DNA from: Candidatus Nanopelagicales bacterium
GTDB taxonomy: Bacteria > Actinomycetota > Actinomycetes > S36-B12 > UBA10799
NCBI GenBank assembly: GCA_018003655.1
Contig: JAGNDY010000001.1
Location: forward strand, 35,399 to 99,398
Length of the DNA: 64,000 nucleotides
Direction of reading: 5' to 3'
Of this stretch, positions 5,016 through 17,326 are shown piece by piece. The notes beneath the pieces were generated by a model. The model was not told where the DNA came from, did not search any database, and saw only the letters and a program-made list of their open reading frames with translations. The position numbers were made by a program, and so were the translations under genes. Numbering within the stretch: the stretch's first letter is position 1; each line of letters begins with the position of its first letter.

Positions 5016-5019
5016 TAAG

Positions 5020-6174
5020 TCAGTCCTTCGTCACGAGCAGCATCTGGGCGGTATTGAGCGCGATTCGATCGTTGTTGACCATGAGCGCACCGCCGTAGGA
5101 ATCACGCAGTTGAAGTCCGAGACCGAACTTGCCACCGTTGCGGTAGCCCGCGATTCCGACGATCAGCAGTGCCTTGCTGACGACCTCCATGACCAACGTC
5201 GAGGCCGAGACTTTGACCCCGTTCATGATGATCGCGACTTTGGGTGAACTTATCGCCTCGCGGTCATCGCCGAGTTCGTCGAAGCGCCTCGCCGCGCTGG
5301 AGACCAGATCGACGAACTCTTGTTGGGTGGTCATCAGGTCGGCCAGGCGAATCGCGCCGGGGGGCGTCGTGCCAGGGGATCGACGTGCCGCCGCACGAAT
5401 GAATAGGCGGGCGGTCTCCACAGCGGCGGTCGCGATGCCTAACCACACATGTCCCCACAGGGTGTGTGCGACTGGCAGCATTGTCTGGGCGGAAATGTCG
5501 CTGTAGGAATCGGGGAAGATGAGCGTCTTGGGACCGGTCGCGTTGAGGATGAAGCCCGGGCTGCACGTGCCGCGAAAGCCCAAGGTGTCCCACGAGCCCG
5601 TCGGTTCCAACGTCAGGCCGGCTTTGTCGCAGGCGACCAGCGATTGGTCGCTTGGCGGGCTGTCGGGGGTTCGACGCGCGGTCGTGAAGATGACGTCGGC
5701 GTACTCGCCGTAGGAAATCACCGGCGCGTCCTTGACCAGGACAAACTCGTCGCCGTCGACGTTGACAGCGCAGGTGCTGGAACGGACATCGCCACCGATG
5801 CCTTTCTCGGTGGTGGCGGATCCCAGCAGGAGCTGATCAGCAACCAATCGATCCTGTAGTTCCTGCAACGCGGGGGTGCGTTCGTGACGAACCAGGCACG
5901 CCACCTGAATTTGATGCATTGCAAAGATCATCGCCGTAGACGCGCAGTGCTGACTCAAACCGAGCACCGCCTGGCTCATCTCAGTGATGGAGGCGCCGCT
6001 GCCGCCCTCACTGACCGGAACCAGTGCGGACATCAGTTTTGCCTCGCGCAAGGCACTGATGGCCTCAATCGGAAAACGGGCGTCCCTGTCCACGTCGGCC
6101 GCTGCCGGGCCGGCGACCTCGCGACCGATGACAGCGGCGATCTCGACGATTGAACTGCTGCTAGGTGCACTCAT
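5020..6174 (-). CDS. Acyl-CoA dehydrogenase-fold flavoprotein (probably acting on an acyl/aminoacyl-S-carrier protein)
   Basis: A 384-aa ORF with ACAD family layout ('TTEKGIGGDVRSSTCAV', C-terminal helical domain). The start ATG forms an ATGA overlap with the ACP stop (6171-6174). The C-terminal segment reads 'RDSYGGALMVNNDRI' where classical ACADs have the 'YEG' catalytic Glu. Confidence 0.8.
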   Translation of the reverse strand: MSAPSSSSIVEIAAVIGREVAGPAAADVDRDARFPIEAISALREAKLMSALVPVSEGGSGASITEMSQAVLGLSQHCASTAMIFAMHQIQVACLVRHERTPALQELQDRLVADQLLLGSATTEKGIGGDVRSSTCAVNVDGDEFVLVKDAPVISYGEYADVIFTTARRTPDSPPSDQSLVACDKAGLTLEPTGSWDTLGFRGTCSPGFILNATGPKTLIFPDSYSDISAQTMLPVAHTLWGHVWLGIATAAVETARLFIRAAARRSPGTTPPGAIRLADLMTTQQEFVDLVSSAARRFDELGDDREAISSPKVAIIMNGVKVSASTLVMEVVSKALLIVGIAGYRNGGKFGLGLQLRDSYGGALMVNNDRIALNTAQMLLVTKD

Positions 6175-6416
6175 GATTCACTCTGGATCTGCTCGACGGC
6201 TTCGCTAATGGCAGCAATGCTGGCGAAGGTGGCCTTCTTCAGCATTGCGTCGGGAAACTCAATGTCGAACTCGTCCTCAAGGGCCAGCATGACGTTGACG
6301 CTCGCATGAGAGGTGAGCCCGGCTTGATAAAGGTCATCTGTTGCGGCAATTGAATCCGCGCCACCCGGCAACTTGCCGTACTGGGCAATGACCGCACGTA
6401 CTTGATCTTCACTCAT
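6171..6416 (-). CDS. Acyl/aminoacyl carrier protein (phosphopantetheine-binding)
   Basis: I trimmed the 127-aa track ORF to the internal ATG at 6416, which gives an 81-aa acidic four-helix-type protein: 'MSEDQVRAVIAQYGKL...DDLYQAGLTSHASVNVMLALEDEFDIEFP'. The candidate Ppant serine is in 'GLTSHA'. It is flanked by the PPTase and the ligase operon. Confidence 0.75.
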   Translation of the reverse strand: MSEDQVRAVIAQYGKLPGGADSIAATDDLYQAGLTSHASVNVMLALEDEFDIEFPDAMLKKATFASIAAISEAVEQIQSES

Positions 6417-6430
6417 CTGTCGGCTTTCTG

Positions 6431-6817
6431 CTAGGTGGCGATGACGACGGCTGTCGCCACGTCGTGCTCGTGGCTGACTGACAGGGCAAAATCCGATAGT
6501 TGATTTGCGTCCGCGAGTTCGCGCGCCGCGCCGCGCAGGTTTAGCTCGGTCCACCCCGAAGGATGAGAGCGAACCTCGATGCTGCGCCAGTCGGGTCCGT
6601 TCTCCGAGGGACGCAAGACCTTGATGGTCGCTTCCTTAGCTGCGAACCGGGCAGCCAATCGGAGCGACATCTGGGGCAGCGGCCCCGCGCAGGCAACGAG
6701 CTCCGCAGGTGTGTAGACACGTTGAAGGTAGCGATCACCAAAATCTTCGATGCTTTGGCGGACGTCGTTCGCGTAGACGACGTCGATGCCGACCCGGAGG
6801 TTCGAGGCCACGGACAT
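6431..6817 (-). CDS. Holo-ACP synthase / 4'-phosphopantetheinyl transferase (AcpS type)
   Basis: A 128-aa ORF with 'VGIDVV' (Mg/CoA-binding start), 'RFAAKEATIKVL' and 'LSVSHEHDVATAVVIA', the canonical AcpS motif pattern and size. Confidence 0.8.
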   Translation of the reverse strand: MSVASNLRVGIDVVYANDVRQSIEDFGDRYLQRVYTPAELVACAGPLPQMSLRLAARFAAKEATIKVLRPSENGPDWRSIEVRSHPSGWTELNLRGAARELADANQLSDFALSVSHEHDVATAVVIAT

Positions 6818-6995
6818 GAAGCTGCCTGCCTTGTTCGCATGCGAGAAGTAGTTGGCGGAGCGATTACCGACAACGGTAGCGAGTCGCAGTCATCCTCGCT
6901 CAACTGAAGCGGCTTCCAGGCCACTGATAGTGGGAGGATGCCGCTATGCGCGCGCGTCTTTGGGTGATGTGCTCATGGGTGTCACGTGATTTCCG

Positions 6996-8321
6996 TTGTG
7001 GTGCACCGTGAGCGAGTCGAAACGTCGGCTCGTGGGCAACGCGACTGCACTCATGGTTGCGACCGTCTCCACCTCGGCCCTCGGCCTGGTCTTTTGGGCC
7101 GTCGCGGCTCGGTTGTACACAGCTGGCGATGTCGGGCTTGGCACCGCGCAGATCAGCGCCGCCACCCTTGCCGCGACCGTCGCACAGTTGAGTTTGGGTT
7201 CGTTGTTTCTGCGCTATCTGCCCCAAGCGGGTAAATACGCGCCGTGGATCGTTCGCCGAGTCTTCGCCGTTGTGATCGCGGCGTCGGTGCTGACTGCGCT
7301 CGCGATCGTCGTGCTCGGTTTTGCCGACCTTTACCTCGTCGACCTGACCGCCGCCATCGTGTTCGTGGTCGCGGTGCCCTTCCTCGCCCTCTTCGTGGTG
7401 CAGGACTCAGCACTGCTGGGTCTCGGCGCAGCCAAGATCATTCCGATTGAGAATGTGCTGTTTGCTGCCGGCAAGCTGGTGCTCCTGCCAGTGTTTGCCG
7501 TGTCTGCGGCATACATCGGAATATTCATTTCCTGGGTGATTCCGGCAATCCTGGCGGTAGTGGGAATTGCTATCTACTTGAGTCGAACCAAGCTCTCGAG
7601 CAACGCACTGGGTGAGGAGGGAATGCCGCTGCCCAATCGCAAGGTGCTGTACCCAATGGTGGGCAAGCAGTACGTCGGGACGCTGGTGAGCCAGCTGGTC
7701 TTCCTCGCCGTCCCACTGATCATCATTCACCGCCTGGGCGCCGATGAGAATGGCTACTTGTCGATCGCGTGGATGATTGGTGGAGCCTTCAACGCATTGA
7801 CGGCGAACATCACCCAGTCATTCTCAAACGAGGTCCGCGGTGGTCAGCATGTGACCGTTGACCTGTTCAAGCGGCTGGCCCTGCTGCTGGCGGTAGTAGC
7901 CGGTCTGGGCGGACTTCTGTGTGCGGCGTTGGCACCCCTGATCCTGCGAATCCTGGCGCCAGATTTTGCCGAGCAATCCACCAATTTGTTGCGCTTGATC
8001 GGGCTGTCTGCACCCTTCCAAGCAGTAGTGCTACTGGTGGTCACTTTCTGGTGGTTGGAAGGCCGATTCGAGATCTTCGCAGTTATCCAAGGGCTCAATG
8101 CCGGTATCGCACTGGTGCTGACCTGGTGGCTCGCTCCCGACCTCGGCCTGAACTCAGCTGGCATTGCATTGCTGTCGACGAGTGTGGTCTTCGCGGCGGG
8201 CTGTGTGTGGCCGCTGGCCCGTCGGGTGATGATTATTCGCCGAGACGAAGGGCACGTTTGGACACCCGAACACGCCGACGCTTCGGCTGGACAGCAGCCA
8301 CCGACGGGTGACTCGTCATGA
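6996..8321 (+). CDS. Polysaccharide/oligosaccharide flippase (MOP/Wzx-like multi-pass membrane protein)
   Basis: A 441-aa ORF that is hydrophobic throughout, with about 12-14 predicted TM segments. It has the N-terminal 'RRLVGNATALMVATV' pattern typical of Wzx/PST family proteins. The track start at 6996 is TTG. GTG at 7008 is an equally good start. Its stop forms an ATGA overlap with the next gene. Confidence 0.65.
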   Translation: MWCTVSESKRRLVGNATALMVATVSTSALGLVFWAVAARLYTAGDVGLGTAQISAATLAATVAQLSLGSLFLRYLPQAGKYAPWIVRRVFAVVIAASVLTALAIVVLGFADLYLVDLTAAIVFVVAVPFLALFVVQDSALLGLGAAKIIPIENVLFAAGKLVLLPVFAVSAAYIGIFISWVIPAILAVVGIAIYLSRTKLSSNALGEEGMPLPNRKVLYPMVGKQYVGTLVSQLVFLAVPLIIIHRLGADENGYLSIAWMIGGAFNALTANITQSFSNEVRGGQHVTVDLFKRLALLLAVVAGLGGLLCAALAPLILRILAPDFAEQSTNLLRLIGLSAPFQAVVLLVVTFWWLEGRFEIFAVIQGLNAGIALVLTWWLAPDLGLNSAGIALLSTSVVFAAGCVWPLARRVMIIRRDEGHVWTPEHADASAGQQPPTGDSS

Positions 8322-9421
8322 CGGCCTCAGTTCCTCGGGGCGGTGGGCTCGACGGGAACTATCGGCTGACCCTCATCTCCGACAGTGACGAGGTGTGGGG
8401 GGCAGAACTGTTCTTGGCGACGCTAGCTGCGGCCCTGCCAGAGGAGGTCATGGTGTCTGTGATCGCCCCGGCGGTGGTGCGTGATCGGATCGAGAAGGGC
8501 CGCAAACTCGTGCGTCGGGGCCGGTACGTCAAGTCCGTCAAGGCGCTTCGTGCGCAATTGCGGGGACAGGTGCCGGACGTGGTGTTGGTCAATGCAACTC
8601 ATCCGCGTTCCTGTCGGCGGGCGCTGGTGGCCGCTCGCTCGTTGGGGATTCCGACGGTCGTGATCGATCATTCGCCCTATCAGGTCCTGACCAGTTCGGG
8701 CAAGGTCGCACAGCGGTTGATCTCGCGAACCGCGGCCCGGCGGTTAGCGGTCGGCTCAGCCACGGCGTCCGCGCTAGAACGGTCCATCGGCTTGGAACCC
8801 GGTGCGATTGGCGTGGTGCTCAACGGAACACCTGAGTGCGCTGCCTGTCCGCCGAGGGTTCGCGATGGCCAAGTCGTCTTGGGCACATTGGGTCGACTCT
8901 CGCAGGAGAAGGGCCTGCCAACGCTGCTGGCGGCGATGCCCGCGCTGCCCAGCCGATACGTGTTACGGATCGCCGGTAGTGGCCCGGATTCCAAAGCACT
9001 CGCCTCGGCGGTACAGGCTGCGGGGCTGGCCGATCGGGTGGATTTCGTCGGCTATTGCTCCGATGTGCGTGGTTTCCTGTGCGACATTGACGTGTTCGTT
9101 CAACCGTCATACTCCGAGGGGCTGCCGTTGACGATTGTGGAAGCGATGTTCTGTGGCCGGCCGGTGATCGCGTCCGATGTGGGCAGCATCAGCGACATCA
9201 TCGACCAGGGTGTGACCGGTTGGCTCGTCCCGCCGCAGGAGCCGCAGGCTTTGGCCGACGCACTGCTGCTCGTCGGTGACGATCCAGCCTTGGCGGCGAC
9301 CGTCGCAAGAGACGCTCGCAGCCTGGCAACACGGGAACTTAGCGACCAGCGGATGGCGACCCGCTACGACCAGATCTTCCGTTCTGTGTTAGGCGACGTG
9401 GCTGCGGTTGTGTCACCGTGA
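8318..9421 (+). CDS. Glycosyltransferase family 4 (GT-B, GT1 domain)
   Basis: A 367-aa ORF whose C-terminal half has the GT4 signature 'FVQPSYSEGLPLTIVEAMFCGRPVIASDVGSISDII..GVTGWLV' (EX7E region). It is coupled to both neighbours (ATGA at 8318-8321, GTGA at 9418-9421). Confidence 0.85.
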   Translation: MTASVPRGGGLDGNYRLTLISDSDEVWGAELFLATLAAALPEEVMVSVIAPAVVRDRIEKGRKLVRRGRYVKSVKALRAQLRGQVPDVVLVNATHPRSCRRALVAARSLGIPTVVIDHSPYQVLTSSGKVAQRLISRTAARRLAVGSATASALERSIGLEPGAIGVVLNGTPECAACPPRVRDGQVVLGTLGRLSQEKGLPTLLAAMPALPSRYVLRIAGSGPDSKALASAVQAAGLADRVDFVGYCSDVRGFLCDIDVFVQPSYSEGLPLTIVEAMFCGRPVIASDVGSISDIIDQGVTGWLVPPQEPQALADALLLVGDDPALAATVARDARSLATRELSDQRMATRYDQIFRSVLGDVAAVVSP

Positions 9422-10863
9422 CGGACACCGCCGTACAGTCGATCGCTTCCCGACGGGCGGCGGACACCCGATTCCTGCTGCCATTTGCCCCCAAAACTGC
9501 AGTGCTGCTTGGGACTCGCTCCGGTGACGCAGCGAGTTGGCAGGCCTGCGGAATCGATGTGCTGGCAGCGGACAGTGGCACCCCTGTCGACGTGGTCGTA
9601 ACCGACTCGAAGTCCCTACCCACTGCCCTGCAGCTCGACGCGCGGGCACTGATCATTCATTCAAAGCGCAGACGCGGCAGTGTGCTGGTGGACGCCGACT
9701 GGCGGGTCGAGCGGTACCTGCAGATGACCGGTTCGGATGGGCCAATCATCATCGCAACGCCCACGCGTGACGTATTGCGATACCTCGCGGTGGAATGGTC
9801 GCCACCGACAACGCTGGTGCAGACGGTTGCTCGACTGGGGCTGCGCTCGGTCACCGCCACTAGGAGTCACAACCTGACAATCGCGACCCGAGAGGCGGGT
9901 TCACCGCAAGCACTGGCGGCCGGATGTGCAGCGGCCGGGCTCGCTCAGCCTGACGGCTTCTTCATGTTCTTCGGCAGCGGGAACGATCGTCAGCGGCCGG
10001 TGGCCTTCGCATTCCCCGCTGCTGGTCGCGACCCGGAGTGGTTGGTCAAGTGGAGTCGCACCGACAACGAACCCGAGCGCGGAAGGCACGAACGCCACGT
10101 ACGAGCAGCGGTCGCCCGGTACCCCGACCTCAACGAACATGTGCCGAGGGATTTGGGTCGCCTGACCTTCGCCGGCTCACCCGCGTCCGTGGAGACGGTT
10201 GCCCCCGGCGTCTCGCTGGACGGGCTGTGGCAGCGCGGAGACGTTGAGAGGGCACTGGCGGTGGGGGAGCGAGTGCTGAAATGGCTGTGCGACTTGGCGC
10301 AGGCGTCCGCGGCTCCAGGTTCCGATGCCCGCGCCTTTGTCGTTGAGGACGCCGACGCGCTCGGGGTGGATGCGACACGACTGATTGATGCCATCGTTGA
10401 CGTGCCGAGGGTTGTTGCCCACAACGATTTGGGAACTGTGAATGTGCTGACGGACGGATCCCGGTTCACCGTCATTGACTGGGAGGATGGACTCATCGAG
10501 GGCTTGCCGGTCGTCGATGTGGCCTACTTCGTGACAACGCTGCTGGCGATGATTCATGCGCCGAGCGAGCCACGAGAGCGAGCGCGCTGGTGCTGCGCCC
10601 TGTGGCGTGGAGAACTCCCGGAGTCGCAATTTGCATTCCGGTGGCTGCGGCGGGCGGCGGACGGGCTGGGTCTCGATGGTGTGCAGACCGGCGCACTGGT
10701 AACGATGTCCTGGCTGCAGGGAGCCCACTCGGCAGGTGACCGCGAGCACTTGCAGACGGAGCGAACCCCGCACTTGGGCTACTACCGTGGGTTTGTCACG
10801 CAGTACTGGTTGGACGATGATCGGCTCGGGTTGGGGTGGCAGTTTGATGCAACTGCGAGTTGA
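9418..10863 (+). CDS. Aminoglycoside-phosphotransferase/choline-kinase-fold protein with an uncharacterised ~190-aa N-terminal region
   Basis: A 481-aa ORF with a kinase-fold catalytic block 'VVAHNDLGTVNVLTDGSRFTVIDWEDG' (HxDxxxxN ... D). The N-terminal part ('TAVLLGTRSGD...GIDVLAAD...VDVVVTD') resembles a degenerate Rossmann/methyltransferase-like fold. Confidence 0.6.
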   Translation: MTDTAVQSIASRRAADTRFLLPFAPKTAVLLGTRSGDAASWQACGIDVLAADSGTPVDVVVTDSKSLPTALQLDARALIIHSKRRRGSVLVDADWRVERYLQMTGSDGPIIIATPTRDVLRYLAVEWSPPTTLVQTVARLGLRSVTATRSHNLTIATREAGSPQALAAGCAAAGLAQPDGFFMFFGSGNDRQRPVAFAFPAAGRDPEWLVKWSRTDNEPERGRHERHVRAAVARYPDLNEHVPRDLGRLTFAGSPASVETVAPGVSLDGLWQRGDVERALAVGERVLKWLCDLAQASAAPGSDARAFVVEDADALGVDATRLIDAIVDVPRVVAHNDLGTVNVLTDGSRFTVIDWEDGLIEGLPVVDVAYFVTTLLAMIHAPSEPRERARWCCALWRGELPESQFAFRWLRRAADGLGLDGVQTGALVTMSWLQGAHSAGDREHLQTERTPHLGYYRGFVTQYWLDDDRLGLGWQFDATAS

Positions 10864-11854
10864 AACCGAGCTCGGGCGCTTTGCCGCACGGTGGGATGCG
10901 CTGCTTGATCAAGCGCCTCGGCCGTCTGTCTTCCTGCGCGCATGGTGGCTGGAAGCCGTCGCTTCGGGAACACCGCAATTCGTGCTCGTTTTCGACGGCG
11001 AGGACTTGGTCGGGGGCTGCCCCCTGCAGCAGGTCGACTGGCACGGGATCCCACTGCTCGAGTTCATGGGTAGCGGCCCGTTGGAAGCCGATCACCTAGA
11101 TGTGGTCGTTGCGGCCGGCTTCGAGGATCAGGTGCGTGACAAGGTGTTCGCCTGGCTTGGCAGGCGAGGCTCCCGAGTTGTGGATTTGCGAGGGCTGAAC
11201 GAACACGCGGTCTTGTTGTCCGGGCGTGAGGGAACAACTGCGGAGTTGCTGCAAGTCGCTCCCTTCTCCGATCTGTCCGGAGGCTTCGCTGAGTTCATGG
11301 CAGCGCGCTCCAAGAGCCTGCGTCGAGATATTCGACAGGCGCAGCGGCGGATGGAGGAAGGCGATGTCACATTCCAACTGTGTGGTCCGTCGGAGGCAGC
11401 GGGAGCGTTGAACGCACTGCGAGATATGCATGCCCAGCAGTGGGGCGACGAGTCCAGCTTTCTAGCCGGTTGGCCGCGTTTCCGCGCAGCTGCCATCGCC
11501 GGTTGTGAACGCGGAGAAGTCGTCGTGGGTCAGGCGACACTGCCCAGCGGCGAACCGATAGCCGCTGGCGTCGCCCTGCAATGCGGCTCCGTGATGTTCA
11601 ACTACCAGAGTGGCCGGTCGCAAGACCCGCGCTGGACTGGCTCAGGGACATTCGTCGACGCTGCCTTGATGCAGGCCAATCCGGCGACAGTCGAGATGGA
11701 TTGGCTTCGGGGCACCGAGAGGTACAAGTCCAAATGGGCAACCGGCGAGCGCCCGCTGTTCCGCCTGCGATTTGCGCACGGGTCGCGGGGATGGTTGGCG
11801 ATTCAGGCATCGAAGATGCTGCACTCCTGGCGCGAGCGCAGAGCCAGGCGCTAG
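10847..11854 (+). CDS. Fem/CelD (BioF2-like, Acetyltransf_6) GNAT-fold acyl/aminoacyl-transferase, paralogue 1
   Basis: I trimmed the track ORF to ATG 10847 ('MQLRVETELGRFAARWDALLDQAPRPSVFLRAWWLEAV'), which aligns with the start of paralogue 2. It has the CelD/BcsL-like layout ('FLRxWWL', 'RSKSLRRDIRQAQRRME', 'MHAQQWGDESSF', 'YQSGR...GSG', 'DWLRGTERYKSKW'). Confidence 0.7.
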   Translation: MQLRVETELGRFAARWDALLDQAPRPSVFLRAWWLEAVASGTPQFVLVFDGEDLVGGCPLQQVDWHGIPLLEFMGSGPLEADHLDVVVAAGFEDQVRDKVFAWLGRRGSRVVDLRGLNEHAVLLSGREGTTAELLQVAPFSDLSGGFAEFMAARSKSLRRDIRQAQRRMEEGDVTFQLCGPSEAAGALNALRDMHAQQWGDESSFLAGWPRFRAAAIAGCERGEVVVGQATLPSGEPIAAGVALQCGSVMFNYQSGRSQDPRWTGSGTFVDAALMQANPATVEMDWLRGTERYKSKWATGERPLFRLRFAHGSRGWLAIQASKMLHSWRERRARR

Positions 11855-11889
11855 CGATTTTGGTGGTTAGTTCAGGAGAGGGCGGTTCG

Positions 11890-13014
11890 ATGCAGGTACG
11901 AGTTGAGAGCGAGCTCGGGCACTTGGCCGCGCGGTGGGATGCGCTGCTTGATCAAGCGCCTCGGCCGTCGGTGTTCCTGCGCTCCTGGTGGCTGCAAGCG
12001 GTCGTGACCGGAACTGCGCAGTTTGTGCTGGTTTTCGACGGCGACGAACTGATCGGCGGGTGTCCGCTGCAAGAGGTCGAATGGCATGGACTGCCGCTCG
12101 TCGAGTTCGTTGGCACCGGGCCGCTGGAACCGGACCACCTCGATGTTGTGGCCGCTCGGGGCAAAGAGGTCCGGATCCGCGACGCGGTCCTGGCTTGGTT
12201 GCTGCGACCCGGTGCCCGAGTGATTGATCTACAGGGCTTGAACGCCGATTCGATCCTGCTCTCAGACCCCGATCAGCTGGCGGCGGCAGAGGTCATGGAA
12301 GCGGCGCCCTATGCCGATCTCGCTGTTGGGGTCGAGGCCTTCCTCGCATCAAGGCGCACCAGCATGCGCAGGCACTTCCGCCAGGCCGAAAGGCGGATGG
12401 AGCGGGCGCAGGTGGAGTTCCGCATGTGCGATGAGTTAACGATTGAGGCAGGGCTCGAGGCGCTGCGCAGCATGCACGAGCAACGGTGGGGAGATGAGTC
12501 GAGCTTCATCGCAGGTTGGGAGCAGTTCCGATCAGCCGCTTTGGCTGGGATCGCGATGGGGGAGGTTGTGCTGGCCGAGGCGCTGTTGCCGGATGGTCAA
12601 CCGATTGCGGCGGCCGTTGTGCTCACCTGTGGAACGATCGCGTACAACTACCAGGCAGGCCGACTGCAGGATCAGCGGTGGACGCGCTCAGGCCAATGGT
12701 TGGATTACCGCCTGCTGGTGGCCCACCCGAAGTGGTCGGAGTTGGACTGGCTGCGCGGTGATGAGCCCTACAAGTCCGATTGGACGACTGATAAGCGCAC
12801 CCTCTACCGACTGCGATTTGGCCACGGACCTAGGGCCAAGCTCGCGGTTGAGGCGTCCAGGGCGGTCACTTTCATCCACGAGCACGAACCCGGTCACCAT
12901 GGCGATGCAAACGACAAGCATGAATCGGTGCCGGTACCGGCTACGGGGTCGGAGGGCTATCCCCGATCGGCCGGGTCGCCACCAGCGGCGACGGGCTCCG
13001 CTGGACCCCAGTGA
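11890..13014 (+). CDS. Fem/CelD (BioF2-like, Acetyltransf_6) GNAT-fold acyl/aminoacyl-transferase, paralogue 2
   Basis: I trimmed the track ORF to ATG 11890 ('MQVRVESELGHLAARWDALLDQAPRPSVFLRSWWLQAV'). It is collinear with paralogue 1 over its whole length and adds a ~40-aa low-complexity C-terminal tail. Confidence 0.7.
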   Translation: MQVRVESELGHLAARWDALLDQAPRPSVFLRSWWLQAVVTGTAQFVLVFDGDELIGGCPLQEVEWHGLPLVEFVGTGPLEPDHLDVVAARGKEVRIRDAVLAWLLRPGARVIDLQGLNADSILLSDPDQLAAAEVMEAAPYADLAVGVEAFLASRRTSMRRHFRQAERRMERAQVEFRMCDELTIEAGLEALRSMHEQRWGDESSFIAGWEQFRSAALAGIAMGEVVLAEALLPDGQPIAAAVVLTCGTIAYNYQAGRLQDQRWTRSGQWLDYRLLVAHPKWSELDWLRGDEPYKSDWTTDKRTLYRLRFGHGPRAKLAVEASRAVTFIHEHEPGHHGDANDKHESVPVPATGSEGYPRSAGSPPAATGSAGPQ

Positions 13015-14579
13015 GCGAGGGGTTGCAGCCGTCGGCGAATCCCGGCCGGACTCAGACCCAGCAACCACCGTTCGTCATTTGCGGTGAGCATCCCAAACAG
13101 CCTGTTCGCTCCGAACAGGAAAATAAAGTCCAGCACCGTGAAGACGAAGACGCCCGGCAGGCCACCCAGTAGCCGCAGGCCGACCAGGTTGCCGGCTGCC
13201 ATCACCGCCGAGGCCGCGACTGCCACCCACACGCGGCCGAACAGGTCCCGGGGCTTGGGTGTGCGGCTCCAGGTGTAACCCACCACAACCAGACTGAACC
13301 CGACCTGGCCGGCGGTGTTGGCCATTGCCGCACCCCAGACTCCGTAGCTCTTGATCAGGGTGATTGACAGGCCGAGGTCGGCAATGCCGCCAACGATCAT
13401 GGCGACGGTGATCGGCCGCAGCCGCCCGCGGGCTGACCAATACGTCTGGCACAAGGTCGCGACAGGGAAGACCAGACAACTCAGAGCCAGGATCGGAACA
13501 ATGGCGGCGGCATCGGTAAACGCATCGCCGTACAACCACACAATGAACGGCGGAACAAGGGTTGCGGTGATGACGGCCAGGGGTGCAGATCCGGCCGCAA
13601 TCACCCTTGCCGCGGGTTTCAGATGGGTCTGGCCGACGTTGCTGTCGCCAGCGCTGACGGCGCGGACGATCGTGGGAAACGCCGAGCCGATCAGAGAACC
13701 GGGAATGAGCAGGATGGCATTCACGATCATGAAGGCGACCGAGAACATGGCGATCTGGGTGTCCGTCTGCCACCTGGCCAGGAAGAACAACTCGATGCGG
13801 TTGAAGACGACTGCCTTGAGTGCGGCCTGCACCATGAAGGCCATGGCGAGCCTGGTTATACCTGGCTGCAGCGGCCAGCGTGGTCCTCGCTCGACCCGAG
13901 GCGCACTGCGGCGGATCACCAGCGCGAGGCAAGTCTCGGAGAAAGCGTAGGCAACGAACACGCCAGCTACGCCCCAGCCGGCAAGCACTGCCAAAACGGC
14001 GAGTACCGGGGCGACAGACTGCCAGATGATGTTGTGTCGGGAGACCGCCGCCCAGCCGAAGGCCGCGACGGTTCTGGCGCCGTAGTTCAGTGCTGCGGCA
14101 TTGGCCAATGCCCAGATGGCACACGCCACCCAACTCACGATGTCGTCGGACCGCAAACCGATGGTCAGCAGAACAACGACGGAGATGCCGCCGCCGACCA
14201 GACCCGCGACGTTTGCCTGCCGGCTGAGCACCTCGACCATCGCCATATCGCCGACGGCTCGTGCTTCGGAAATCTGGCGTACCCACAGGCTAAACAGTGA
14301 ACCGACTAGCAGGGCAGAGAGCAGTGCTTGAACGAACGCGATATACGACTGCTGACCCAACTCGTCCGGGCCCAGGAATCGTCCCAGGACGACCGAGACC
14401 ATGGCGCCAGCCAACAGCGGGGTCAGGGTCGCTGCAGCGAGCCAGATGCCTCCCCGCCAAGGGGATTGGCCATCAACCTTGGTAGACGCCACGTGGAAAT
14501 ACCTGTCTGGAGCCGAGACGAGCAGGAGTCTGGACTCTAACGGTTCAATCGCGCGGAAAGACTGTCTTGTGGTGTGCAT
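12957..14579 (-). CDS. Polysaccharide biosynthesis protein / second MOP-type flippase
   Basis: I trimmed the 596-aa track ORF to ATG 14579, which avoids overlap with the divergent GT4. The protein is a multi-pass membrane protein with PST/MOP-like features ('LGRFLGPDELGQQSYI', many TM helices). Confidence 0.65.
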   Translation of the reverse strand: MHTTRQSFRAIEPLESRLLLVSAPDRYFHVASTKVDGQSPWRGGIWLAAATLTPLLAGAMVSVVLGRFLGPDELGQQSYIAFVQALLSALLVGSLFSLWVRQISEARAVGDMAMVEVLSRQANVAGLVGGGISVVVLLTIGLRSDDIVSWVACAIWALANAAALNYGARTVAAFGWAAVSRHNIIWQSVAPVLAVLAVLAGWGVAGVFVAYAFSETCLALVIRRSAPRVERGPRWPLQPGITRLAMAFMVQAALKAVVFNRIELFFLARWQTDTQIAMFSVAFMIVNAILLIPGSLIGSAFPTIVRAVSAGDSNVGQTHLKPAARVIAAGSAPLAVITATLVPPFIVWLYGDAFTDAAAIVPILALSCLVFPVATLCQTYWSARGRLRPITVAMIVGGIADLGLSITLIKSYGVWGAAMANTAGQVGFSLVVVGYTWSRTPKPRDLFGRVWVAVAASAVMAAGNLVGLRLLGGLPGVFVFTVLDFIFLFGANRLFGMLTANDERWLLGLSPAGIRRRLQPLAHWGPAEPVAAGGDPADRG

Positions 14580-14608
14580 GACGGACGCGACGTGGGAGGC
14601 TGAGCCGT

Positions 14609-15808
14609 ATGCTGAAAGCAAGATCACAACGCCGCGTGCTCGTGACGACGTGTGATCTTCCTTGGCCAGCGAACACCGGCAAGCGAATGCGATCACGACT
14701 GCTTTGCGAGGTTGCCGCCGAGTTCGGTGCCGTGGACGTGCTCGCACTCACCGAGATCGATCCGGCCCATCCCTCCGGTGCTGTGCCCGCTGAGTGGGGC
14801 ACGGTCGATGTCACGGTGATGCCTCCGCAGGTGCGGTCGATGGCAACCGGGGTCGTGCGCGTGGCTACCCATTGGTGGCCCGGAGTCATCGCGATTCGGG
14901 ACTGGTCGGCAGAGTTGGCATTCCTCCAGGCGCACGCGGGACAGTACGACCTGGTCATCTTTGGATCACTGGTCCACGCCGAGGCATTGGGGGAGGGTTC
15001 GACTGACCACGTCGTGGTCGACATGGACGACATCGAATCCGCGAAGATCACCGCAAACTTGGCCGTTCGTGGGCAGCAGCCCATGCCTGCGCACCGGCTC
15101 TGGCAACTGCGCGTCGATCGCAGGTTGTGGCGCCGGTTGGAACGTCGGTTCGTCACCTCCGCCGCGACGGCGTTGGTGGCCAGCGAGCTAGACCGGCGGC
15201 GGCTGGCCAAAACCAGGTCGTACGTCGTTCCCAACTACTACCCCGACGTTCATCCGATTGAGCCGTTGCCCCGGAACGCGTCGATCGCACTGGTCGGGAA
15301 CTTCGCCTACCCGCCCAACCGAGATGCGGCGCAGATGGCGGTCAGCGAGGTGCTGCCGCTCGTGCGTCGCGAGGTCCCCGATGTGCGCCTGCGCATCGTC
15401 GGTCGGGCAGCGCAGACTCTGCCCGATCAGTTGCTCACGGCGGTGGGTGTGGACCTTGTGGGCGAGGTTGATTCAATCGCGACCGAACTGTCGCACTGCG
15501 CGGTTTCGCTGGTACCGGTCCGTTACGGCGGGGGCACTCGAATCAAAATCATCGAATCGTTTGCGCTTGGGGTGCCGGTCGTGTCGACCAGTGTGGGTTG
15601 CGAAGGCCTCGCAGCCGCACCCGGGATTGACCTGCTTGTCGCTGACGACCCGGCCGGTCTCGCACAGGAGTGTTGTCACGTCTTGGCTGATCACCAGCTG
15701 GCTTCCAAGCTGGCCGCTTCAGGCCGCGAACTGTTCGAGCGGGAGTTCTCCTACGCACACGCCAAGGCCAGCCTGCGAGTTGCCCTCGACCAAGCCATCG
15801 GCGGCTGA
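14609..15808 (+). CDS. Glycosyltransferase family 4 (second copy)
   Basis: A 399-aa ORF with ATG 14609 preceded by GGGAGG at 14594-14599. It has the GT4 C-terminal signature 'VSLVPVRYGGGTRIKIIESFALGVPVVSTSVGCEGL'. Confidence 0.8.
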   Translation: MLKARSQRRVLVTTCDLPWPANTGKRMRSRLLCEVAAEFGAVDVLALTEIDPAHPSGAVPAEWGTVDVTVMPPQVRSMATGVVRVATHWWPGVIAIRDWSAELAFLQAHAGQYDLVIFGSLVHAEALGEGSTDHVVVDMDDIESAKITANLAVRGQQPMPAHRLWQLRVDRRLWRRLERRFVTSAATALVASELDRRRLAKTRSYVVPNYYPDVHPIEPLPRNASIALVGNFAYPPNRDAAQMAVSEVLPLVRREVPDVRLRIVGRAAQTLPDQLLTAVGVDLVGEVDSIATELSHCAVSLVPVRYGGGTRIKIIESFALGVPVVSTSVGCEGLAAAPGIDLLVADDPAGLAQECCHVLADHQLASKLAASGRELFEREFSYAHAKASLRVALDQAIGG

Positions 15809-15907
15809 GCAGCGACGCGGTGCCCACGGCACCTGTCGGATGTCACGTGGCTGGTCGCAACGCGCTCTCGTTGCGCGTCGTGGGGGGTCTGCGGGCAGAC
15901 TTCACGC

Positions 15908-17326
15908 ATGACAGTCCATCTCGATCCGCGCATGGACCGCTCCCACGCGAATGGCGAGGTGGTGCGAGCCGCACTGGAATTGGCTGGCGCCTGGCCGGAT
16001 CTGTCGACGGCCGACGTCACCTGGTTGTTGGCCGAATCGGTCTGTACCGCCGACAGGCCCTGCACCAGCACCGAATTGGCATTCTGGCTGACCGACGACA
16101 CCGGAACACCGATTGTGGCCTCCGATCGGCTGGTATGGCGCGGACCGGAACCCCAGCATCTCCAGGACGTGTTCCTGCACCTGTGTCGGCACGAAGGCGC
16201 GACGGTCAAAGTGGCCGGCAAGTTCGCGGCGACCCCGATCGCGGCCTATTCACTGGCCAACGCCGTGCGGGTCGCTCCCGTGATGTTGCGCCGGGCGAAG
16301 AGCGCCAACCCAGTTCAGTTGCTCGACGATCACGAGGTTTCCGGGATTCGGCCCCCGCCTACCGCGTCAACCGGCCGACTTCGCGCGGTGTTCAGGCGGT
16401 GGACGCGTTCGCGTGAGTGGCGAGTCGCCGTGGCGCACGACGTGAATCTCGGTGACATGTTGGACGGCAGGCTGGGTAGCCCACTGTGGTGGATAGGACC
16501 GCGATCGTGGCGCAGGTTCTGGGCCGATCCGTGTCCGGTGATCGACGCGGACGACGTGAGGTGGATCTTCGTCGAGGAGTACGACCGCCTGGCGGGTCGC
16601 GGCTGCATTGTGGCTCTGAAGGTGCGAGGCGGCCTTGTCATCGAACGGCGCGTGGTGCTTGCCGATCGCCACCACCGCGCACTTCCGCGGATACAGCACG
16701 TCGAGGGCCGGTGGTTGGCGACGACCGACAGTTGCGAGTTCCCCAGCCGCGTATACACCTTCGAGCAGCTCGGTGACCGCTGGCTTGCCGTCGAAGGCGC
16801 TGTGCTGCCTGGTTTCCTCAGCGATCCGGAGCTGATCCGCACGCCCGATGGTTGGACCGTCACGGGGACTAACTGGCTGGAAGACGACAACGCCGTGTCC
16901 GAGACCTGGGCGTCGCCGGACGGGCCGCCATTTGAGTGGACCCGCCGCGACGAGCTCGGTTACGCCGACGCAGCGATCGCGCGCAACGCCGGCACCACCG
17001 ATCCCGAACTCGGCGTGCGGGTAGCCCAGGACTCTGCGATGGAGTATGGCCGCAACATTGTGATGGGGCGGTTTCCGCGCTCAGCCGACCAACTGCCGCG
17101 CGCGGGTGCGCACGCCATGCGGGAGTACCCCGACAGGCCCGGGCGTCGCGGTGGCGCCCACACCCTGGCCTGGACCGCCGGAGCGCGCCTTGTCGCGACC
17201 GATATCTGGTGGGATCGCTTTGACCCGTTGGCCCGAGTCTGGCTGCGCCGCGACCAACGCCACCTGACCGCCTGTCGCGCTCAGACCAAAGCAGCCCACT
17301 CCACTGCGTGGGTCCTGCCGTCTTAA
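15908..17326 (+). CDS. Hypothetical protein (C-terminal region weakly reminiscent of ADPF-motif beta-propeller proteins found in capsule loci)
   Basis: A 472-aa ORF in the same direction as the upstream GT4. I recognise no family with confidence. 'FWADPCPVIDADDVRWIFVEEYD...GRGCIVAL' resembles the 'ADPF...FxE...G.I' start of GH43-like/GINT1-N-type propeller domains. Confidence 0.5.
   Translation: MTVHLDPRMDRSHANGEVVRAALELAGAWPDLSTADVTWLLAESVCTADRPCTSTELAFWLTDDTGTPIVASDRLVWRGPEPQHLQDVFLHLCRHEGATVKVAGKFAATPIAAYSLANAVRVAPVMLRRAKSANPVQLLDDHEVSGIRPPPTASTGRLRAVFRRWTRSREWRVAVAHDVNLGDMLDGRLGSPLWWIGPRSWRRFWADPCPVIDADDVRWIFVEEYDRLAGRGCIVALKVRGGLVIERRVVLADRHHRALPRIQHVEGRWLATTDSCEFPSRVYTFEQLGDRWLAVEGAVLPGFLSDPELIRTPDGWTVTGTNWLEDDNAVSETWASPDGPPFEWTRRDELGYADAAIARNAGTTDPELGVRVAQDSAMEYGRNIVMGRFPRSADQLPRAGAHAMREYPDRPGRRGGAHTLAWTAGARLVATDIWWDRFDPLARVWLRRDQRHLTACRAQTKAAHSTAWVLPS

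What the first reader, a model, noticed from the sequence alone, without database searches (positions are those of the whole stretch)
6996..17326. Atypical glycoconjugate locus that may use aminoacyl-S-ACP instead of aminoacyl-tRNA
Seen in the sequence: a coupled plus-strand operon lies divergent from the carrier-protein operon, across a 178-bp shared control region at 6818-6995. It runs flippase, then ATGA overlap, GT4, then GTGA overlap, kinase-like protein, then a 17-nt overlap, Fem/CelD-like GNAT 1, then a 35-nt gap, GNAT 2. A second MOP flippase (minus strand), a second GT4 and a 472-aa orphan protein follow.

Not seen anywhere in this locus: a priming phosphoglycosyl transferase (WbaP/WecA type), a Wzy polymerase, a chain-length regulator, or nucleotide-sugar synthesis genes.

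Established knowledge: the Acetyltransf_6/FemABX-related GNAT fold includes enzymes that transfer amino acids from aminoacyl-tRNA onto cell-wall precursors.

Inference: the ligase next door is an aaRS that has swapped tRNA for a carrier protein. The two Fem-like enzymes may correspondingly have swapped aminoacyl-tRNA for aminoacyl-S-ACP as donor. They would then add one or two amino-acid-derived groups to a short glycan or glycolipid that is exported by the flippases. The lack of priming and polymerase genes suggests decoration of an existing envelope polymer or a small glycolipid rather than a classical capsule.
Basis: inference. Interest (0 to 1): 0.75.

Follow-up and report, generated by a model that had tools for sequence, protein, structure and literature searches.

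The report
Envelope-glycan operon beside aminoacyl-carrier cassette
This is a real, lineage-specific gene cluster for building and decorating a cell-envelope sugar chain that sits next to an amino-acid-loading carrier-protein cassette, but comparison with 160 related loci gives no support for the idea that its two Fem-like enzymes draw amino acids from that carrier protein.

Summary
The gene map is correct. All junctions are as described: ATGA, GTGA, a 17-nt overlap and a 35-nt gap. Two GT4s, two Acetyltransf_6 paralogues (59% identical) and an APH-motif kinase-like protein are confirmed. The two "MOP flippases" are polytopic membrane proteins with no significant family match.

The neighbouring ligase is a bona fide amino acid:[carrier protein] ligase.

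- Of 80 ligase loci from other species, none carries a GNAT1/2 homologue; one has a remote Acetyltransf_6.
- Of 80 loci with GNAT relatives, none carries the ligase, carrier, ACAD, DUF1839 or GH2 genes.

The ligase instead travels with CP (74/80), an ACAD-like protein (71), the invariant-Cys papain-like DUF1839 (61) and a β-mannosidase-like GH2 (54). This cassette lies beside polysaccharide genes in 36/80 loci.

GNAT1 models as a FemX-like double GNAT. Its closest solved relatives are aminoacyl-tRNA-dependent.

Best reading: two independently mobile modules are juxtaposed in three Nanopelagicales-type species. The GNATs most likely use aminoacyl-tRNA or acyl-CoA. DUF1839 is the likelier outlet for the carrier-bound amino acid.

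The plus operon is of ordinary kind. The cassette–polysaccharide link is the useful lead.

The parts
6818..6995 (.). Divergent intergenic region between the carrier-protein operon and the glycan operon (runs to 7007 if the membrane protein starts at GTG 7008)
   Evidence: Sequence read. No sigma-70-like site was found in it and there is no enrichment over shuffles. No Rfam match.
6996..8321 (+). Polytopic membrane protein (437-441 aa), putative exporter/flippase. Of the plus-operon genes, this one has the most recurrent link to the ligase cassette.
   Evidence: At least 9 hydrophobic segments. No Pfam, NCBIfam or PDB match. Homologues lie next to the ligase cassette in a Micrococcales MAG (L012, 58% id, divergent as here) and in four Rhodococcus species (27-30% id, same operon).
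8318..9421 (+). GT4 glycosyltransferase (GT4a); ATGA overlap with the upstream gene
   Evidence: Pfam Glyco_trans_1_4 1.6e-37 and Glycos_transf_1 1.1e-36. Homologue directly upstream of the cassette in L008 (201 bits) and in L095 (300 bits).
9418..10863 (+). 481-aa protein with an APH/choline-kinase-type catalytic motif in its C-terminal half; GTGA overlap upstream and 17-nt overlap with GNAT1
   Evidence: Motif HNDLGTVN...IDWE. Hygromycin-B kinase 3w0r E 0.009. Sub-threshold TCAD9 and Choline_kinase hits. Orthologue in L095 (323 bits). APH-motif genes sit directly upstream of GNAT relatives in L099 and L107, but pairwise similarity to the L099 protein is not significant.
10847..11854 (+). GNAT1: Acetyltransf_6 (CelD/Fem-like) double-GNAT transferase, 335 aa
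   Evidence: Pfam PF13480, 44.3 bits against cutoff 22. AF2 model pLDDT 68.8. Best PDB fold match FemX of W. viridescens, TM 0.64, E 1.8e-12. Keeps all 11 family-invariant residues, including Y293-K294.
11890..13014 (+). GNAT2: paralogue of GNAT1 (59% identity), 374 aa with a low-complexity C-terminal tail
   Evidence: Pfam PF13480, 44 bits. Identity. Identical to P0004 from Ca. Nanopelagicales MAGs. L095 has a single GNAT of this type.
12957..14579 (-). Second polytopic membrane protein (511-540 aa depending on start); convergent with and overlapping the GNAT2 3' end, divergent from GT4b
   Evidence: At least 11 hydrophobic segments. Candidate starts at 14579 and 14492. No family match. Weak collinear similarity to a Polysacc_synt_3 family (hhalign E 0.0084, probability 4.7%). 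Orthologue in L095 (551 bits).
14609..15808 (+). GT4 glycosyltransferase (GT4b)
   Evidence: Pfam Glyco_trans_1_4 2.7e-21. Full-length but sub-threshold similarity to TIGR03087. Orthologue in L095 (367 bits).
15908..17326 (+). 472-aa orphan; very rare family; possible beta-propeller glycosidase/phosphorylase-like core (weak)
   Evidence: Only 4 relatives in 5.8 billion proteins. Homologues lie directly upstream of the cassette in L008 (226 bits) and in L095 (374 bits). AF2 model is poor (pLDDT 45.8). Low-TM matches to GH43, GH130 and sialidase propellers.
6431..6817 (-). 4'-phosphopantetheinyl transferase (first gene of the divergent cassette)
   Evidence: Pfam ACPS 3.8e-14. Present in 40 of 80 ligase loci.
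6171..6416 (-). Carrier protein (81 aa)
   Evidence: Pfam PP-binding 2.2e-07. 81-aa gene called in relatives. Present in 74 of 80 ligase loci.
5020..6174 (-). Acyl-CoA-dehydrogenase-like flavoprotein
   Evidence: Pfam Acyl-CoA_dh_N, _M and _1. Present in 71 of 80 ligase loci.
4101..5015 (-). Amino acid:[carrier protein] ligase (SerRS-derived)
   Evidence: NCBIfam NF005479, 437 bits against cutoff 357. Homologous to Bll0957 structures (4h2w/3mey, E 7e-78), with the Cys/Glu/Cys positions aligned.
3121..4104 (-). DUF1839 papain-like protein; 4-nt overlap with the ligase gene; candidate aminoacyl/acyl transferase or thioesterase for the loaded carrier protein
   Evidence: Pfam PF08893 1.4e-103. 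Present in 61 of 80 ligase loci. Cys32 is invariant in 62 of 62 sequences, together with T118, H148 and H236. Classified as papain-like with a C-(T/S)-H triad in PMC10318531.
633..3131 (-). GH2 beta-mannosidase-like protein; no obvious signal peptide; 11-nt overlap with DUF1839
   Evidence: Full-length match to B. thetaiotaomicron beta-mannosidase (2vqu, E 2.5e-36). Pfam Glyco_hydro_2_N2 and Ig_mannosidase. Present in 54 of 80 ligase loci. Candidate catalytic Glu motifs GGSE422 and TE503C (inference).
23..610 (+). Acetyltransf_3 (RimJ/RimL-type) GNAT flanking the cassette
   Evidence: Pfam 5.2e-21. Also flanks the cassette in L008 and in the P0010 contig.

Best explanation
The region is a composite envelope-glycan locus specific to this lineage. 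It is made of modules that occur separately elsewhere.

**Module B (6996-17326)** builds and decorates a short glycan or glycolipid.
- Two GT4 enzymes add sugars.
- An APH-fold kinase-like protein phosphorylates a sugar or intermediate.
- Two FemX-like double-GNAT transferases N-acylate an amine on it, one or two residues. The donor is most probably aminoacyl-tRNA, or otherwise an acyl-CoA.
- Two polytopic membrane proteins export or flip it.
- A rare 472-aa protein with a possible glycosidase-like propeller processes it.
- Priming, polymerisation and sugar-nucleotide supply come from elsewhere in the genome.

**Module A (633-6817)** is a widespread, self-contained cassette.
- An aaRS-derived ligase loads a small amino acid on a dedicated carrier protein.
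- An ACAD-like flavoenzyme may modify the loaded group.
- The translationally coupled papain-like DUF1839 (invariant Cys) takes the group off the carrier.
- The group probably goes onto a glycan that is recognised or trimmed by the coupled beta-mannosidase-like GH2.

Module A is often recruited to polysaccharide loci, so here it probably contributes a second, independent decoration to the same envelope glycan. It probably does not feed the GNATs.

**Shown:** the gene content, the family assignments and the co-occurrence counts.
**Inferred:** every substrate, every donor, the role of DUF1839 and the shared target.
For: **Gene map and family assignments:**

**Module A is a conserved unit.** In 80 ligase loci from other species, CP occurs in 74, ACAD in 71, DUF1839 in 61, GH2 in 54 and PPTase in 40. 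The same order is seen in L008-L011.
- DUF1839 overlaps the ligase stop and has an invariant Cys32 in 62 of 62 sequences. It is classed as papain-like in PMC10318531.
- GH2 is a full-length beta-mannosidase homologue.

**Module A sits in polysaccharide loci.** Bac_transf occurs in 23 loci, GT4 in 20 and 13, GT2 in 9, Wzy_C in 9 and a homologue of the 441-aa membrane protein in 5. The union is 36 of 80.

**The modules separate.**
- L008 has GT4a + orphan + cassette, without GNAT or kinase.
- L012 has the membrane-protein homologue + 2 GT2 + cassette, without GNAT.
- L095 has GT4a-kinase-GNAT-membrane-GT4b-orphan, without the cassette, on a 12.4-kb contig.

**The GNAT family is a general component of polysaccharide loci.**
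- 27,128 cluster representatives match at E<=1e-3.
- Recurring neighbours in the 80 loci are GT4, polysaccharide deacetylase (12 loci), a cupin/JmjC-like protein (17 loci), GT2, a Polysacc_synt_3 flippase, Bac_transf and methyltransferases.
- In single loci there is a DegT aminotransferase (L099) and a direct GNAT-GT4 fusion (L097).
- None of the 80 loci contains the cassette.

**GNAT1 fold.** The best matches are FemX (TM 0.64), aaPGS/MprF and Sba18/Sbb17. Characterised members of this double-GNAT group use aminoacyl-tRNA and a catalytic Lys that follows an aromatic residue (PMC12945691). Y293-K294 is invariant in this family.
Against: - No member of the Acetyltransf_6/CelD subfamily found here has a demonstrated donor, so aminoacyl-tRNA is assigned by fold analogy only.
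- The GNAT1 model is of medium quality (pLDDT 68.8, with a poor N-terminal domain).
- The tight divergent arrangement of A and B is conserved in three species. This is compatible with a direct functional link.
- The metagenomic GNAT loci are often short. Only 10 have at least 5 kb on both sides.
- L095 could carry the cassette beyond its contig ends.
- No tRNA gene is nearby.
- The roles of the membrane proteins, the kinase-like protein and the orphan are not established.
- DUF1839 has no biochemical characterisation.
Confidence: 0.5

Rival explanations
1. The two Fem-like GNATs have swapped aminoacyl-tRNA for aminoacyl-S-carrier protein. They add one or two amino-acid-derived groups, supplied by the divergent ligase/CP operon, to the glycan.
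For: - The two operons are divergent across 178 bp, and this arrangement is conserved in three species.
- A bona fide aa:CP ligase and carrier protein are present.
- The GNATs have a Fem-like fold suited to aminoacyl transfer.
- One distant ligase locus (L037) does contain an Acetyltransf_6 gene 5.5 kb away.
Against: - None of 80 ligase loci has a GNAT1/2 homologue.
- None of 80 GNAT loci has ligase, CP, ACAD, DUF1839 or GH2.
- L095 keeps the GNAT operon without the cassette on its contig.
- L008 and L012 keep the cassette with glycan genes but without a GNAT.
- The cassette already has a conserved Cys enzyme, DUF1839, coupled to the ligase.
- The Fem-type double-GNAT enzymes with known donors reviewed in PMC12945691 all use aa-tRNA.
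- The three syntenic genomes are close relatives, so they count as roughly one observation.
Confidence: 0.1
2. The GNATs are ordinary acyl-CoA-dependent N-acyltransferases, for example acetyl or succinyl transfer onto a de-N-acetylated or transaminated amino sugar. No amino acid is transferred by them. Any amino-acid chemistry in the locus belongs to the cassette alone.
For: - Pfam places them in an acetyltransferase GNAT family.
- GNAT relatives co-occur with polysaccharide deacetylases (12 loci), and one locus (L099) carries a DegT aminotransferase. Both enzyme types create free sugar amines.
- Fold hits include acetyl-CoA-binding tandem GNATs: the clavulanic-acid pathway protein 2wpw/2wpx, and Eis.
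Against: - The best fold matches are to aa-tRNA-dependent FemX, aaPGS and Sba18/Sbb17, with higher TM scores (0.56-0.64) than Eis or VipF (0.36-0.43).
- The family-invariant aromatic-Lys pair near the C-terminus resembles the Fem catalytic Lys (PMC12945691).
- Having two tandem paralogues fits stepwise addition, as in FemA/FemB.
Confidence: 0.2
3. The two operons are functionally unrelated neighbours. The cassette acts on another substrate, such as a small metabolite or a different polymer, and merely landed beside a glycan island.
For: - The cassette occurs without any glycan genes within 10 kb in 44 of 80 loci, and also in L010 (MarR, oxidoreductases, peptidase).
- The modules separate in L008, L012 and L095.
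Against: - The cassette always carries a GH2 glycosidase-like gene when DUF1839 is present and the contig allows (54 of 61).
- It neighbours polysaccharide genes in 36 of 80 loci across several phyla.
- Individual plus-operon genes (GT4a, the orphan, the 441-aa membrane protein) recur directly beside the cassette in L008, L012 and Rhodococcus.
Confidence: 0.15

Closest known systems
FemX/FemABX aminoacyl-tRNA-dependent transferases (W. viridescens FemX, S. aureus FemX/FemA)
   Same: GNAT1 models as a double-GNAT protein of the same length. FemX is the best PDB fold match (TM 0.64, E 1.8e-12). An aromatic-Lys pair (Y293-K294) is invariant near the C-terminus, as with F304-K305 in FemX (PMC12945691).
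   Different: It hits Pfam Acetyltransf_6 (CelD-like), not FemAB. Sequence identity to FemX is about 14%. It is encoded in a glycosyltransferase operon, not a peptidoglycan context. Donor and acceptor are unknown.
Orf11/Sba18/Sbb17 of streptothricin-type pathways (Gly-tRNA-dependent acylation of the amino sugar streptothrisamine)
   Same: This is the only PDB sequence-profile hit for the GNAT family (E 0.025-0.038) and also a fold match (TM 0.57-0.62). It is a precedent for a Fem-like enzyme aminoacylating an amino sugar (PMC12945691).
   Different: That system is an antibiotic pathway acting on a soluble small molecule. Here the context is envelope glycan genes. The similarity is marginal.
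Amino acid:[carrier protein] ligases Bll0957/Atu2573 (Mocibob et al. 2010, 2013)
   Same: The window's ligase passes the NCBIfam equivalog cutoff and is homologous to Bll0957 (265 bits, E 7e-78) with the zinc-ligand positions aligned. A dedicated CP and a PPTase lie alongside.
   Different: Their biological role was still described as unknown in 2022 (PMC9437257). This work adds a comparative observation only: the cassette includes DUF1839 and a GH2 and often lies in polysaccharide loci.
Dlt D-alanylation system (DltA ligase, DltC carrier protein, DltB/DltD)
   Same: Same logic for Module A: a dedicated ligase loads a small amino acid on a dedicated carrier protein for transfer to an envelope polymer. 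This is analogy from established knowledge, not tested here.
   Different: The ligase here is aaRS-derived, not ANL-type. The 441-aa membrane-protein family has no invariant His of the MBOAT type among its conserved residues. The candidate transferase is a cytoplasmic papain-like Cys enzyme.
BtrI/BtrH of butirosin biosynthesis (ACP-to-aminoglycoside acyl transfer by a papain-like enzyme)
   Same: It is a precedent for a papain-superfamily enzyme moving an aminoacyl-type group from a carrier protein onto an amino sugar. BtrH_N is in the same superfamily as DUF1839 according to PMC10318531.
   Different: DUF1839 is a separate family with a rearranged C-(T/S)-H triad. No direct similarity to BtrH was tested here.
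Wzx/Wzy-dependent polysaccharide loci containing CelD/FemAB-like GNATs (including PEP-CTERM/XrtA-type EPS loci)
   Same: GNAT relatives sit with GT4, GT2, Polysacc_synt_3 flippase, Bac_transf and polysaccharide deacetylase. The window's GT4s give their best NCBIfam similarity to TIGR03087/TIGR03088.
   Different: All NCBIfam scores are far below the cutoffs. The window has no PGT, Wzy or chain-length regulator. The GNATs do not hit any NCBIfam model.

Membership tests
Acetyltransf_6 (PF13480, CelD/BcsL-like GNAT) | Pfam score above the gathering threshold | tested here: met
   GNAT1 scores 44.3 bits and GNAT2 44.0 bits against a cutoff of 22.
FemABX aminoacyl-tRNA transferases | Double-GNAT fold | tested here: met
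   AF2 model (pLDDT 68.8). Best PDB matches are FemX_Wv at TM 0.64 and S. aureus FemX at TM 0.64.
FemABX aminoacyl-tRNA transferases | Sequence membership (Pfam FemAB or an NCBIfam Fem model) | tested here: not met
   No FemAB or NCBIfam hit. The PDB sequence profile does not reach FemX.
FemABX aminoacyl-tRNA transferases | Catalytic Lys preceded by an aromatic residue in GNAT domain 2 | tested here: inconclusive
   Y293-K294 is invariant in 22 family members. Equivalence to F304-K305 is inferred from position only, without residue-level superposition.
FemABX aminoacyl-tRNA transferases | Aminoacyl-tRNA as donor | not testable with these tools
   This needs an enzyme assay. There is no tRNA gene in the window, which is uninformative.
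Amino acid:[carrier protein] ligase | Equivalog model above cutoff; truncated class II core without a tRNA-binding domain; Zn ligands; adjacent CP | tested here: met
   NF005479 scores 437 bits against 357. The protein is 304 aa and aligns to Bll0957 with Cys/Glu/Cys conserved. CP and PPTase are adjacent.
MOP (Wzx/MurJ-type) flippases - both membrane proteins | Significant match to Polysacc_synt, Polysacc_synt_3, MurJ/MVIN or a solved MOP structure | tested here: not met
   No Pfam or NCBIfam hit even at E<=10. No PDB profile hit.
MOP (Wzx/MurJ-type) flippases - both membrane proteins | 12-14 TM polytopic topology and profile similarity to verified flippases | tested here: inconclusive
   At least 9 and at least 11 strongly hydrophobic segments. 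hhalign to a Pfam-verified Polysacc_synt_3 family is collinear, but probability is 0.6% and 4.7%. No structure model could be made.
APH/choline-kinase-fold phosphotransferases | HxDxxxxN catalytic loop and a downstream D-x-E/D metal-binding motif | tested here: met
   HNDLGTVN...IDWE aligns to hygromycin-B kinase residues 187-231.
APH/choline-kinase-fold phosphotransferases | Pfam APH or Choline_kinase above threshold | tested here: not met
   Only Choline_kinase at 10.3 bits and TCAD9 at 17 bits, both far below their cutoffs.
Classical Wzx/Wzy-dependent capsule/O-antigen locus | Priming phosphoglycosyl transferase, Wzy polymerase, chain-length regulator and sugar-nucleotide genes in the locus | tested here: not met
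   None in 1-17.3 kb nor in the flanking ~17-55 kb.
DUF1839 papain-like enzymes | Pfam match and conserved catalytic Cys with Thr/Ser and His | tested here: met
   PF08893 at 1.4e-103. C32 is invariant in 62 of 62; T118, H148 and H236 are invariant. Triad as described in PMC10318531.
GH2 beta-mannosidases | Full-length homology and both catalytic glutamates | tested here: inconclusive
   Full-length match to BtMan2A at E 2.5e-36. Candidate Glu422 and Glu503 motifs were located by eye and not checked by residue-level alignment.

The most novel reading that the evidence does not exclude
The aaRS-derived ligase cassette (PPTase-CP-ACAD-ligase-DUF1839-GH2) is a previously unrecognised glycan-modification system. 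It would be a functional analogue of Dlt or BtrI/BtrH: a carrier-bound, possibly oxidised, small amino acid is transferred by the papain-like DUF1839 onto a (beta-mannoside-type?) envelope polysaccharide. In this clade it would cooperate with Fem-like GNATs, so that one glycan carries amino-acid-derived groups from both a carrier-protein route and a tRNA route.
Probability: 0.3. Interest if true: 0.7.

Novelty: new member of a known kind. Interest (0 to 1): 0.38.

Why it matters
Amino acid:[carrier protein] ligases have been structurally characterised since 2010, yet a 2022 review still describes their biological role as unknown (PMC9437257).

The finding's specific hypothesis, Fem-like enzymes fed by a carrier protein, would have been a new donor class for that fold, but it is not supported here.

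What the follow-up does yield is a concrete, testable direction for the open question:
- The ligase travels as a fixed cassette with an invariant-Cys papain-like protein and a beta-mannosidase-like GH2.
- In 36 of 80 species examined the cassette is embedded among polysaccharide genes.
- Some of these species are culturable and potentially tractable, including Rhodococcus, Burkholderia, Paraburkholderia and Azospirillum.

The plus-strand operon itself is an ordinary, if poorly annotated, envelope-glycan cluster.

Tried and rejected
- **Family assignment of the two membrane proteins as MOP flippases.** Pfam/NCBIfam at E<=10, a PDB profile search and hhalign against a verified flippase family were all negative or non-significant.
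- **Structure of the 472-aa orphan.** The 5-sequence alignment gave pLDDT 45.8. The fold hits (GH43, GH130 and sialidase propellers, TM 0.2-0.37) are only a hint. The PDB sequence profile found nothing.
- **Homology of the window's kinase-like protein to the APH gene upstream of the GNAT in L099.** Pairwise BLAST is not significant and only the catalytic motif aligns. The 'kinase+GNAT pair' recurrence rests on position and motif alone.
- **PEP-CTERM/XrtA EPS membership.** The GT4 hits to TIGR03087/TIGR03088 are far below cutoff, and the GNATs hit no NCBIfam model. Rejected.
- **Regulatory features in the divergent spacer.** No promoter-like site was found there, terminator and promoter counts are not above shuffles, there is no Rfam hit and there are no tRNA genes.
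- **Literature.** Mocibob 2010 is not held. Searches for locus tags and for ligase plus polysaccharide found nothing relevant.
- **My first greedy gene caller** mis-called overlapping genes. It was replaced by stop-to-stop ORF clustering. That method merges some antisense or fused ORFs, so the cluster counts are approximate.

Full report
**1. Observation**

The reported gene map is accurate.

Plus-strand ORFs lie at 6996-8321, 8318-9421, 9418-10863, 10847-11854, 11890-13014, 14609-15808 and 15908-17326. One long minus-strand ORF ends at 12957.

The junctions are exactly as described:
- ATGA at 8318-8321
- GTGA at 9418-9421
- a 17-nt overlap between the 481-aa protein and GNAT1
- a 35-nt gap before GNAT2

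The first gene may start at GTG 7008 rather than TTG 6996. Relatives are called at 437 aa.

Family assignments:
- Pfam confirms two GT4 enzymes and two Acetyltransf_6 proteins above threshold.
- The two GNATs are 59% identical.
- The 481-aa protein has no significant family hit. It does carry the APH/choline-kinase catalytic motif HNDLGTVN...IDWE, which aligns to hygromycin-B kinase (E 0.009).
- The 472-aa protein is a true orphan.
- The two 'MOP flippases' could not be verified. They have no Pfam, NCBIfam or PDB hit, and profile-profile comparison with a verified flippase family is non-significant. Both are polytopic.

The divergent operon is PPTase, 81-aa carrier protein, ACAD-like protein, amino acid:[carrier protein] ligase, DUF1839 and a GH2 protein. 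All are tightly coupled.

The absence of a priming transferase, Wzy, a chain-length regulator and sugar-nucleotide genes holds for the locus. It also holds for the flanking ~17-55 kb, which is housekeeping DNA.

**2. Provenance and conservation**

GNAT2 is identical to a protein from Candidatus Nanopelagicales MAGs, and window proteins are found on those contigs.

Three species-level lineages share the complete 14-gene arrangement, with GNAT1 identity of 99%, 80% and 72%. These are close relatives, so they count as roughly one independent observation.

**3. The ligase cassette is a conserved, self-contained unit**

The ligase passes the NCBIfam equivalog cutoff (437 against 357 bits). It is homologous to the crystallised Bll0957 (265 bits, E 7e-78) with the Cys/Glu/Cys positions aligned.

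I scanned one genome per species and fetched 80 ligase loci with 49-78% identity. They come from Actinomycetota, Proteobacteria, Planctomycetota, Gemmatimonadota and Acidobacteriota. I then searched their ORFs with every window protein.

| Window protein | Ligase loci with a homologue (of 80) |
|---|---|
| CP | 74 |
| ACAD-like | 71 |
| DUF1839 | 61 |
| GH2 | 54 |
| PPTase | 40 |
| 441-aa membrane protein | 5 |
| GNAT1/GNAT2 | 0 |
| kinase-like | 0 |
| second membrane protein | 0 |
| orphan | 0 |

A GNAT-family HMM found a single remote Acetyltransf_6, in L037. It lies 5.5 kb from the ligase inside a peptide-like cluster with three ATP-grasp ligases.

DUF1839 overlaps the ligase stop codon. 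It has Cys32 invariant in 62 of 62 sequences, together with T118, H148 and H236. It has been classified as papain-like with a C-(T/S)-H triad and a glycan-related genomic context (PMC10318531).

The GH2 is a full-length beta-mannosidase homologue without an evident signal peptide.

Clustering the remaining neighbours showed polysaccharide genes beside the cassette in 36 of 80 loci:
- Bac_transf in 23 loci
- GT4 in 20 and 13 loci
- GT2 in 9 loci
- Wzy_C in 9 loci

A 2022 review still calls the role of these ligases unknown (PMC9437257).

**4. The GNAT family is a general polysaccharide-locus component without the cassette**

An exhaustive profile search finds 27,128 cluster representatives at E<=1e-3 and 2,398 at E<=1e-30. 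Many have two matched stretches in ~750-800-aa proteins.

Eighty metagenomic loci encoding relatives (22-54% identity; 32 loci of at least 8 kb; 433 kb of flank) contain no ligase, CP, ACAD, DUF1839, GH2 or PPTase homologue.

Their recurrent neighbours are GT4 (36 loci), a cupin/JmjC-like protein (17), polysaccharide deacetylase (12), GT2, a Polysacc_synt_3 flippase, Bac_transf and methyltransferases. L099 also carries a DegT aminotransferase. In L097 the GNAT is fused to a GT4.

An APH-motif gene sits directly upstream of the GNAT in L099 and L107, as in the window. Pairwise similarity to the window's protein is not significant.

**5. Mosaic loci show that the modules separate**

| Locus | Relation to window | Gene content |
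|---|---|---|
| L008 | ligase 68% identical | GT4a-like and orphan-like genes immediately upstream of the cassette; no GNAT or kinase; a Bac_transf nearby |
| L012 / P0010 contig | ligase 78% identical | homologue of the 441-aa membrane protein plus two GT2s beside the cassette; nothing Fem-like |
| Rhodococcus loci | ligase 55-59% identical | CP-ACAD-ligase-alpha/beta-hydrolase-membrane-protein homologue-...-GH16-GT2; no DUF1839 or GH2 |
| L095 | orphan 45% identical | GT2-GT2-GT4a-kinase-one GNAT-membrane protein-GT4b-orphan; no cassette on its 12.4-kb contig |

So GT4a, the orphan and the 441-aa membrane protein each recur next to the cassette. The kinase+GNAT pair does not.

**6. Fold of the GNATs**

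The GNAT1 model has pLDDT 68.8, with a well-resolved C-terminal domain.

Its PDB fold matches:
- FemX of W. viridescens is best (TM 0.64, E 1.8e-12).
- Then come aa-phosphatidylglycerol synthases/MprF, S. aureus FemX/FemA and the aminoacyl-tRNA-dependent Sba18/Sbb17.
- Acetyl-CoA tandem GNATs score lower.

The only PDB sequence-profile hits are Sba18/Sbb17 (E 0.025-0.038).

[quoted passage not shown] Y293-K294 is invariant in this family; I infer its equivalence to that Lys from position only.

An Arg-rich helix (residues 156-171) could bind either tRNA or an acidic carrier protein, so it does not discriminate between donors.

**7. Interpretation**

The plus operon is a lineage-specific member of the common class of envelope-glycan clusters that include CelD/Fem-like GNATs. 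It relies on priming and polymerisation functions encoded elsewhere.

The adjacent cassette is an independent module with its own probable transferase. It is frequently recruited to polysaccharide loci, so a shared target glycan is plausible.

It has only clade-restricted adjacency in its favour. I put it at about 0.1.

The more interesting lead is the cassette itself as a candidate aaRS-derived glycan-modification system. That idea can be tested in culturable hosts.

**8. Limits**

- All substrates and donors are inferred.
- Many metagenomic loci are short.
- The ORF clustering used stop-to-stop ORFs, so the counts are approximate.
- The orphan model is poor.
- The membrane proteins remain unassigned.

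Noticed in passing
L037:1590-12793: An aa:CP ligase + CP + PPTase (no ACAD, DUF1839 or GH2) sits in a peptide-like cluster. The cluster has three ATP-grasp ligases, an Acetyltransf_6 protein (3403-4470), a homoserine O-succinyltransferase-like protein, a Cys/Met PLP enzyme and an alpha/beta hydrolase. It may be a small-peptide natural-product pathway. It is the only ligase locus of 80 with any Acetyltransf_6 nearby.
   Followed up: partly
L015, L017, L018, L019 (e.g. L019:8440-20288): Rhodococcus has a variant cassette: CP-ACAD-ligase-alpha/beta hydrolase-homologue of the window's 441-aa membrane protein-426-aa unknown-DUF998-GH16-GT2. It lacks DUF1839 and GH2, which suggests the hydrolase and membrane protein replace them.
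   Followed up: partly
L097:4755-7169: A single 805-aa protein fuses an Acetyltransf_6 GNAT to a GT4 glycosyltransferase. This is direct evidence that this GNAT family works in the same pathway step-set as GT4 enzymes.
   Followed up: no
L099:8419-10152 and L107:7096-8586: APH-motif phosphotransferase genes lie directly upstream of GNAT relatives (overlapping in L099), mirroring the kinase-like/GNAT1 overlap in the window. The kinase+Fem-like GNAT pair may be a recurring sub-module of polysaccharide loci.
   Followed up: partly
L012-L091 (80 ligase loci): The ligase cassette neighbours Bac_transf (23 loci), GT4, GT2 and Wzy_C genes; the union is 36 of 80 loci across several phyla. I found no paper that states this association for aa:CP ligases, apart from a one-line context remark on DUF1839 in PMC10318531.
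   Followed up: partly
window:633-3131 (-): The GH2 of the cassette is a full-length beta-mannosidase homologue with no evident signal peptide. Motifs suggest that both catalytic glutamates are retained (GGSE422, TE503C). A cytoplasmic glycosidase inside a biosynthetic cassette is odd.
   Followed up: partly
window:15908-17326 (+): The 472-aa orphan belongs to an extremely rare family, with 4 relatives in 5.8 billion proteins. It has invariant Cys209, His255-His256 and Cys276 and a beta-rich core. Homologues always sit beside GT4 genes, and in L008 directly beside the cassette.
   Followed up: partly
window:25003-30460 (-): A DnaE2 (1042 aa) - ImuB-like (IMS) - MT3502_N-domain gene set, i.e. 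an SOS mutagenesis-type cassette.
   Followed up: no
window:18924-19721 (+) and 22980-24875 (-): A GH16 glycoside hydrolase and a 631-aa Acyl_transf_3 membrane acyltransferase lie just downstream of the locus. GH16 also accompanies the Rhodococcus variant cassette, so these may belong to the same glycan system.
   Followed up: no
P0133-P0281 (one search list): Many GNAT-family representatives are 700-1160 aa with two to four matched stretches. These are fused tandem copies, and they echo the tandem GNAT1/GNAT2 paralogues here.
   Followed up: no
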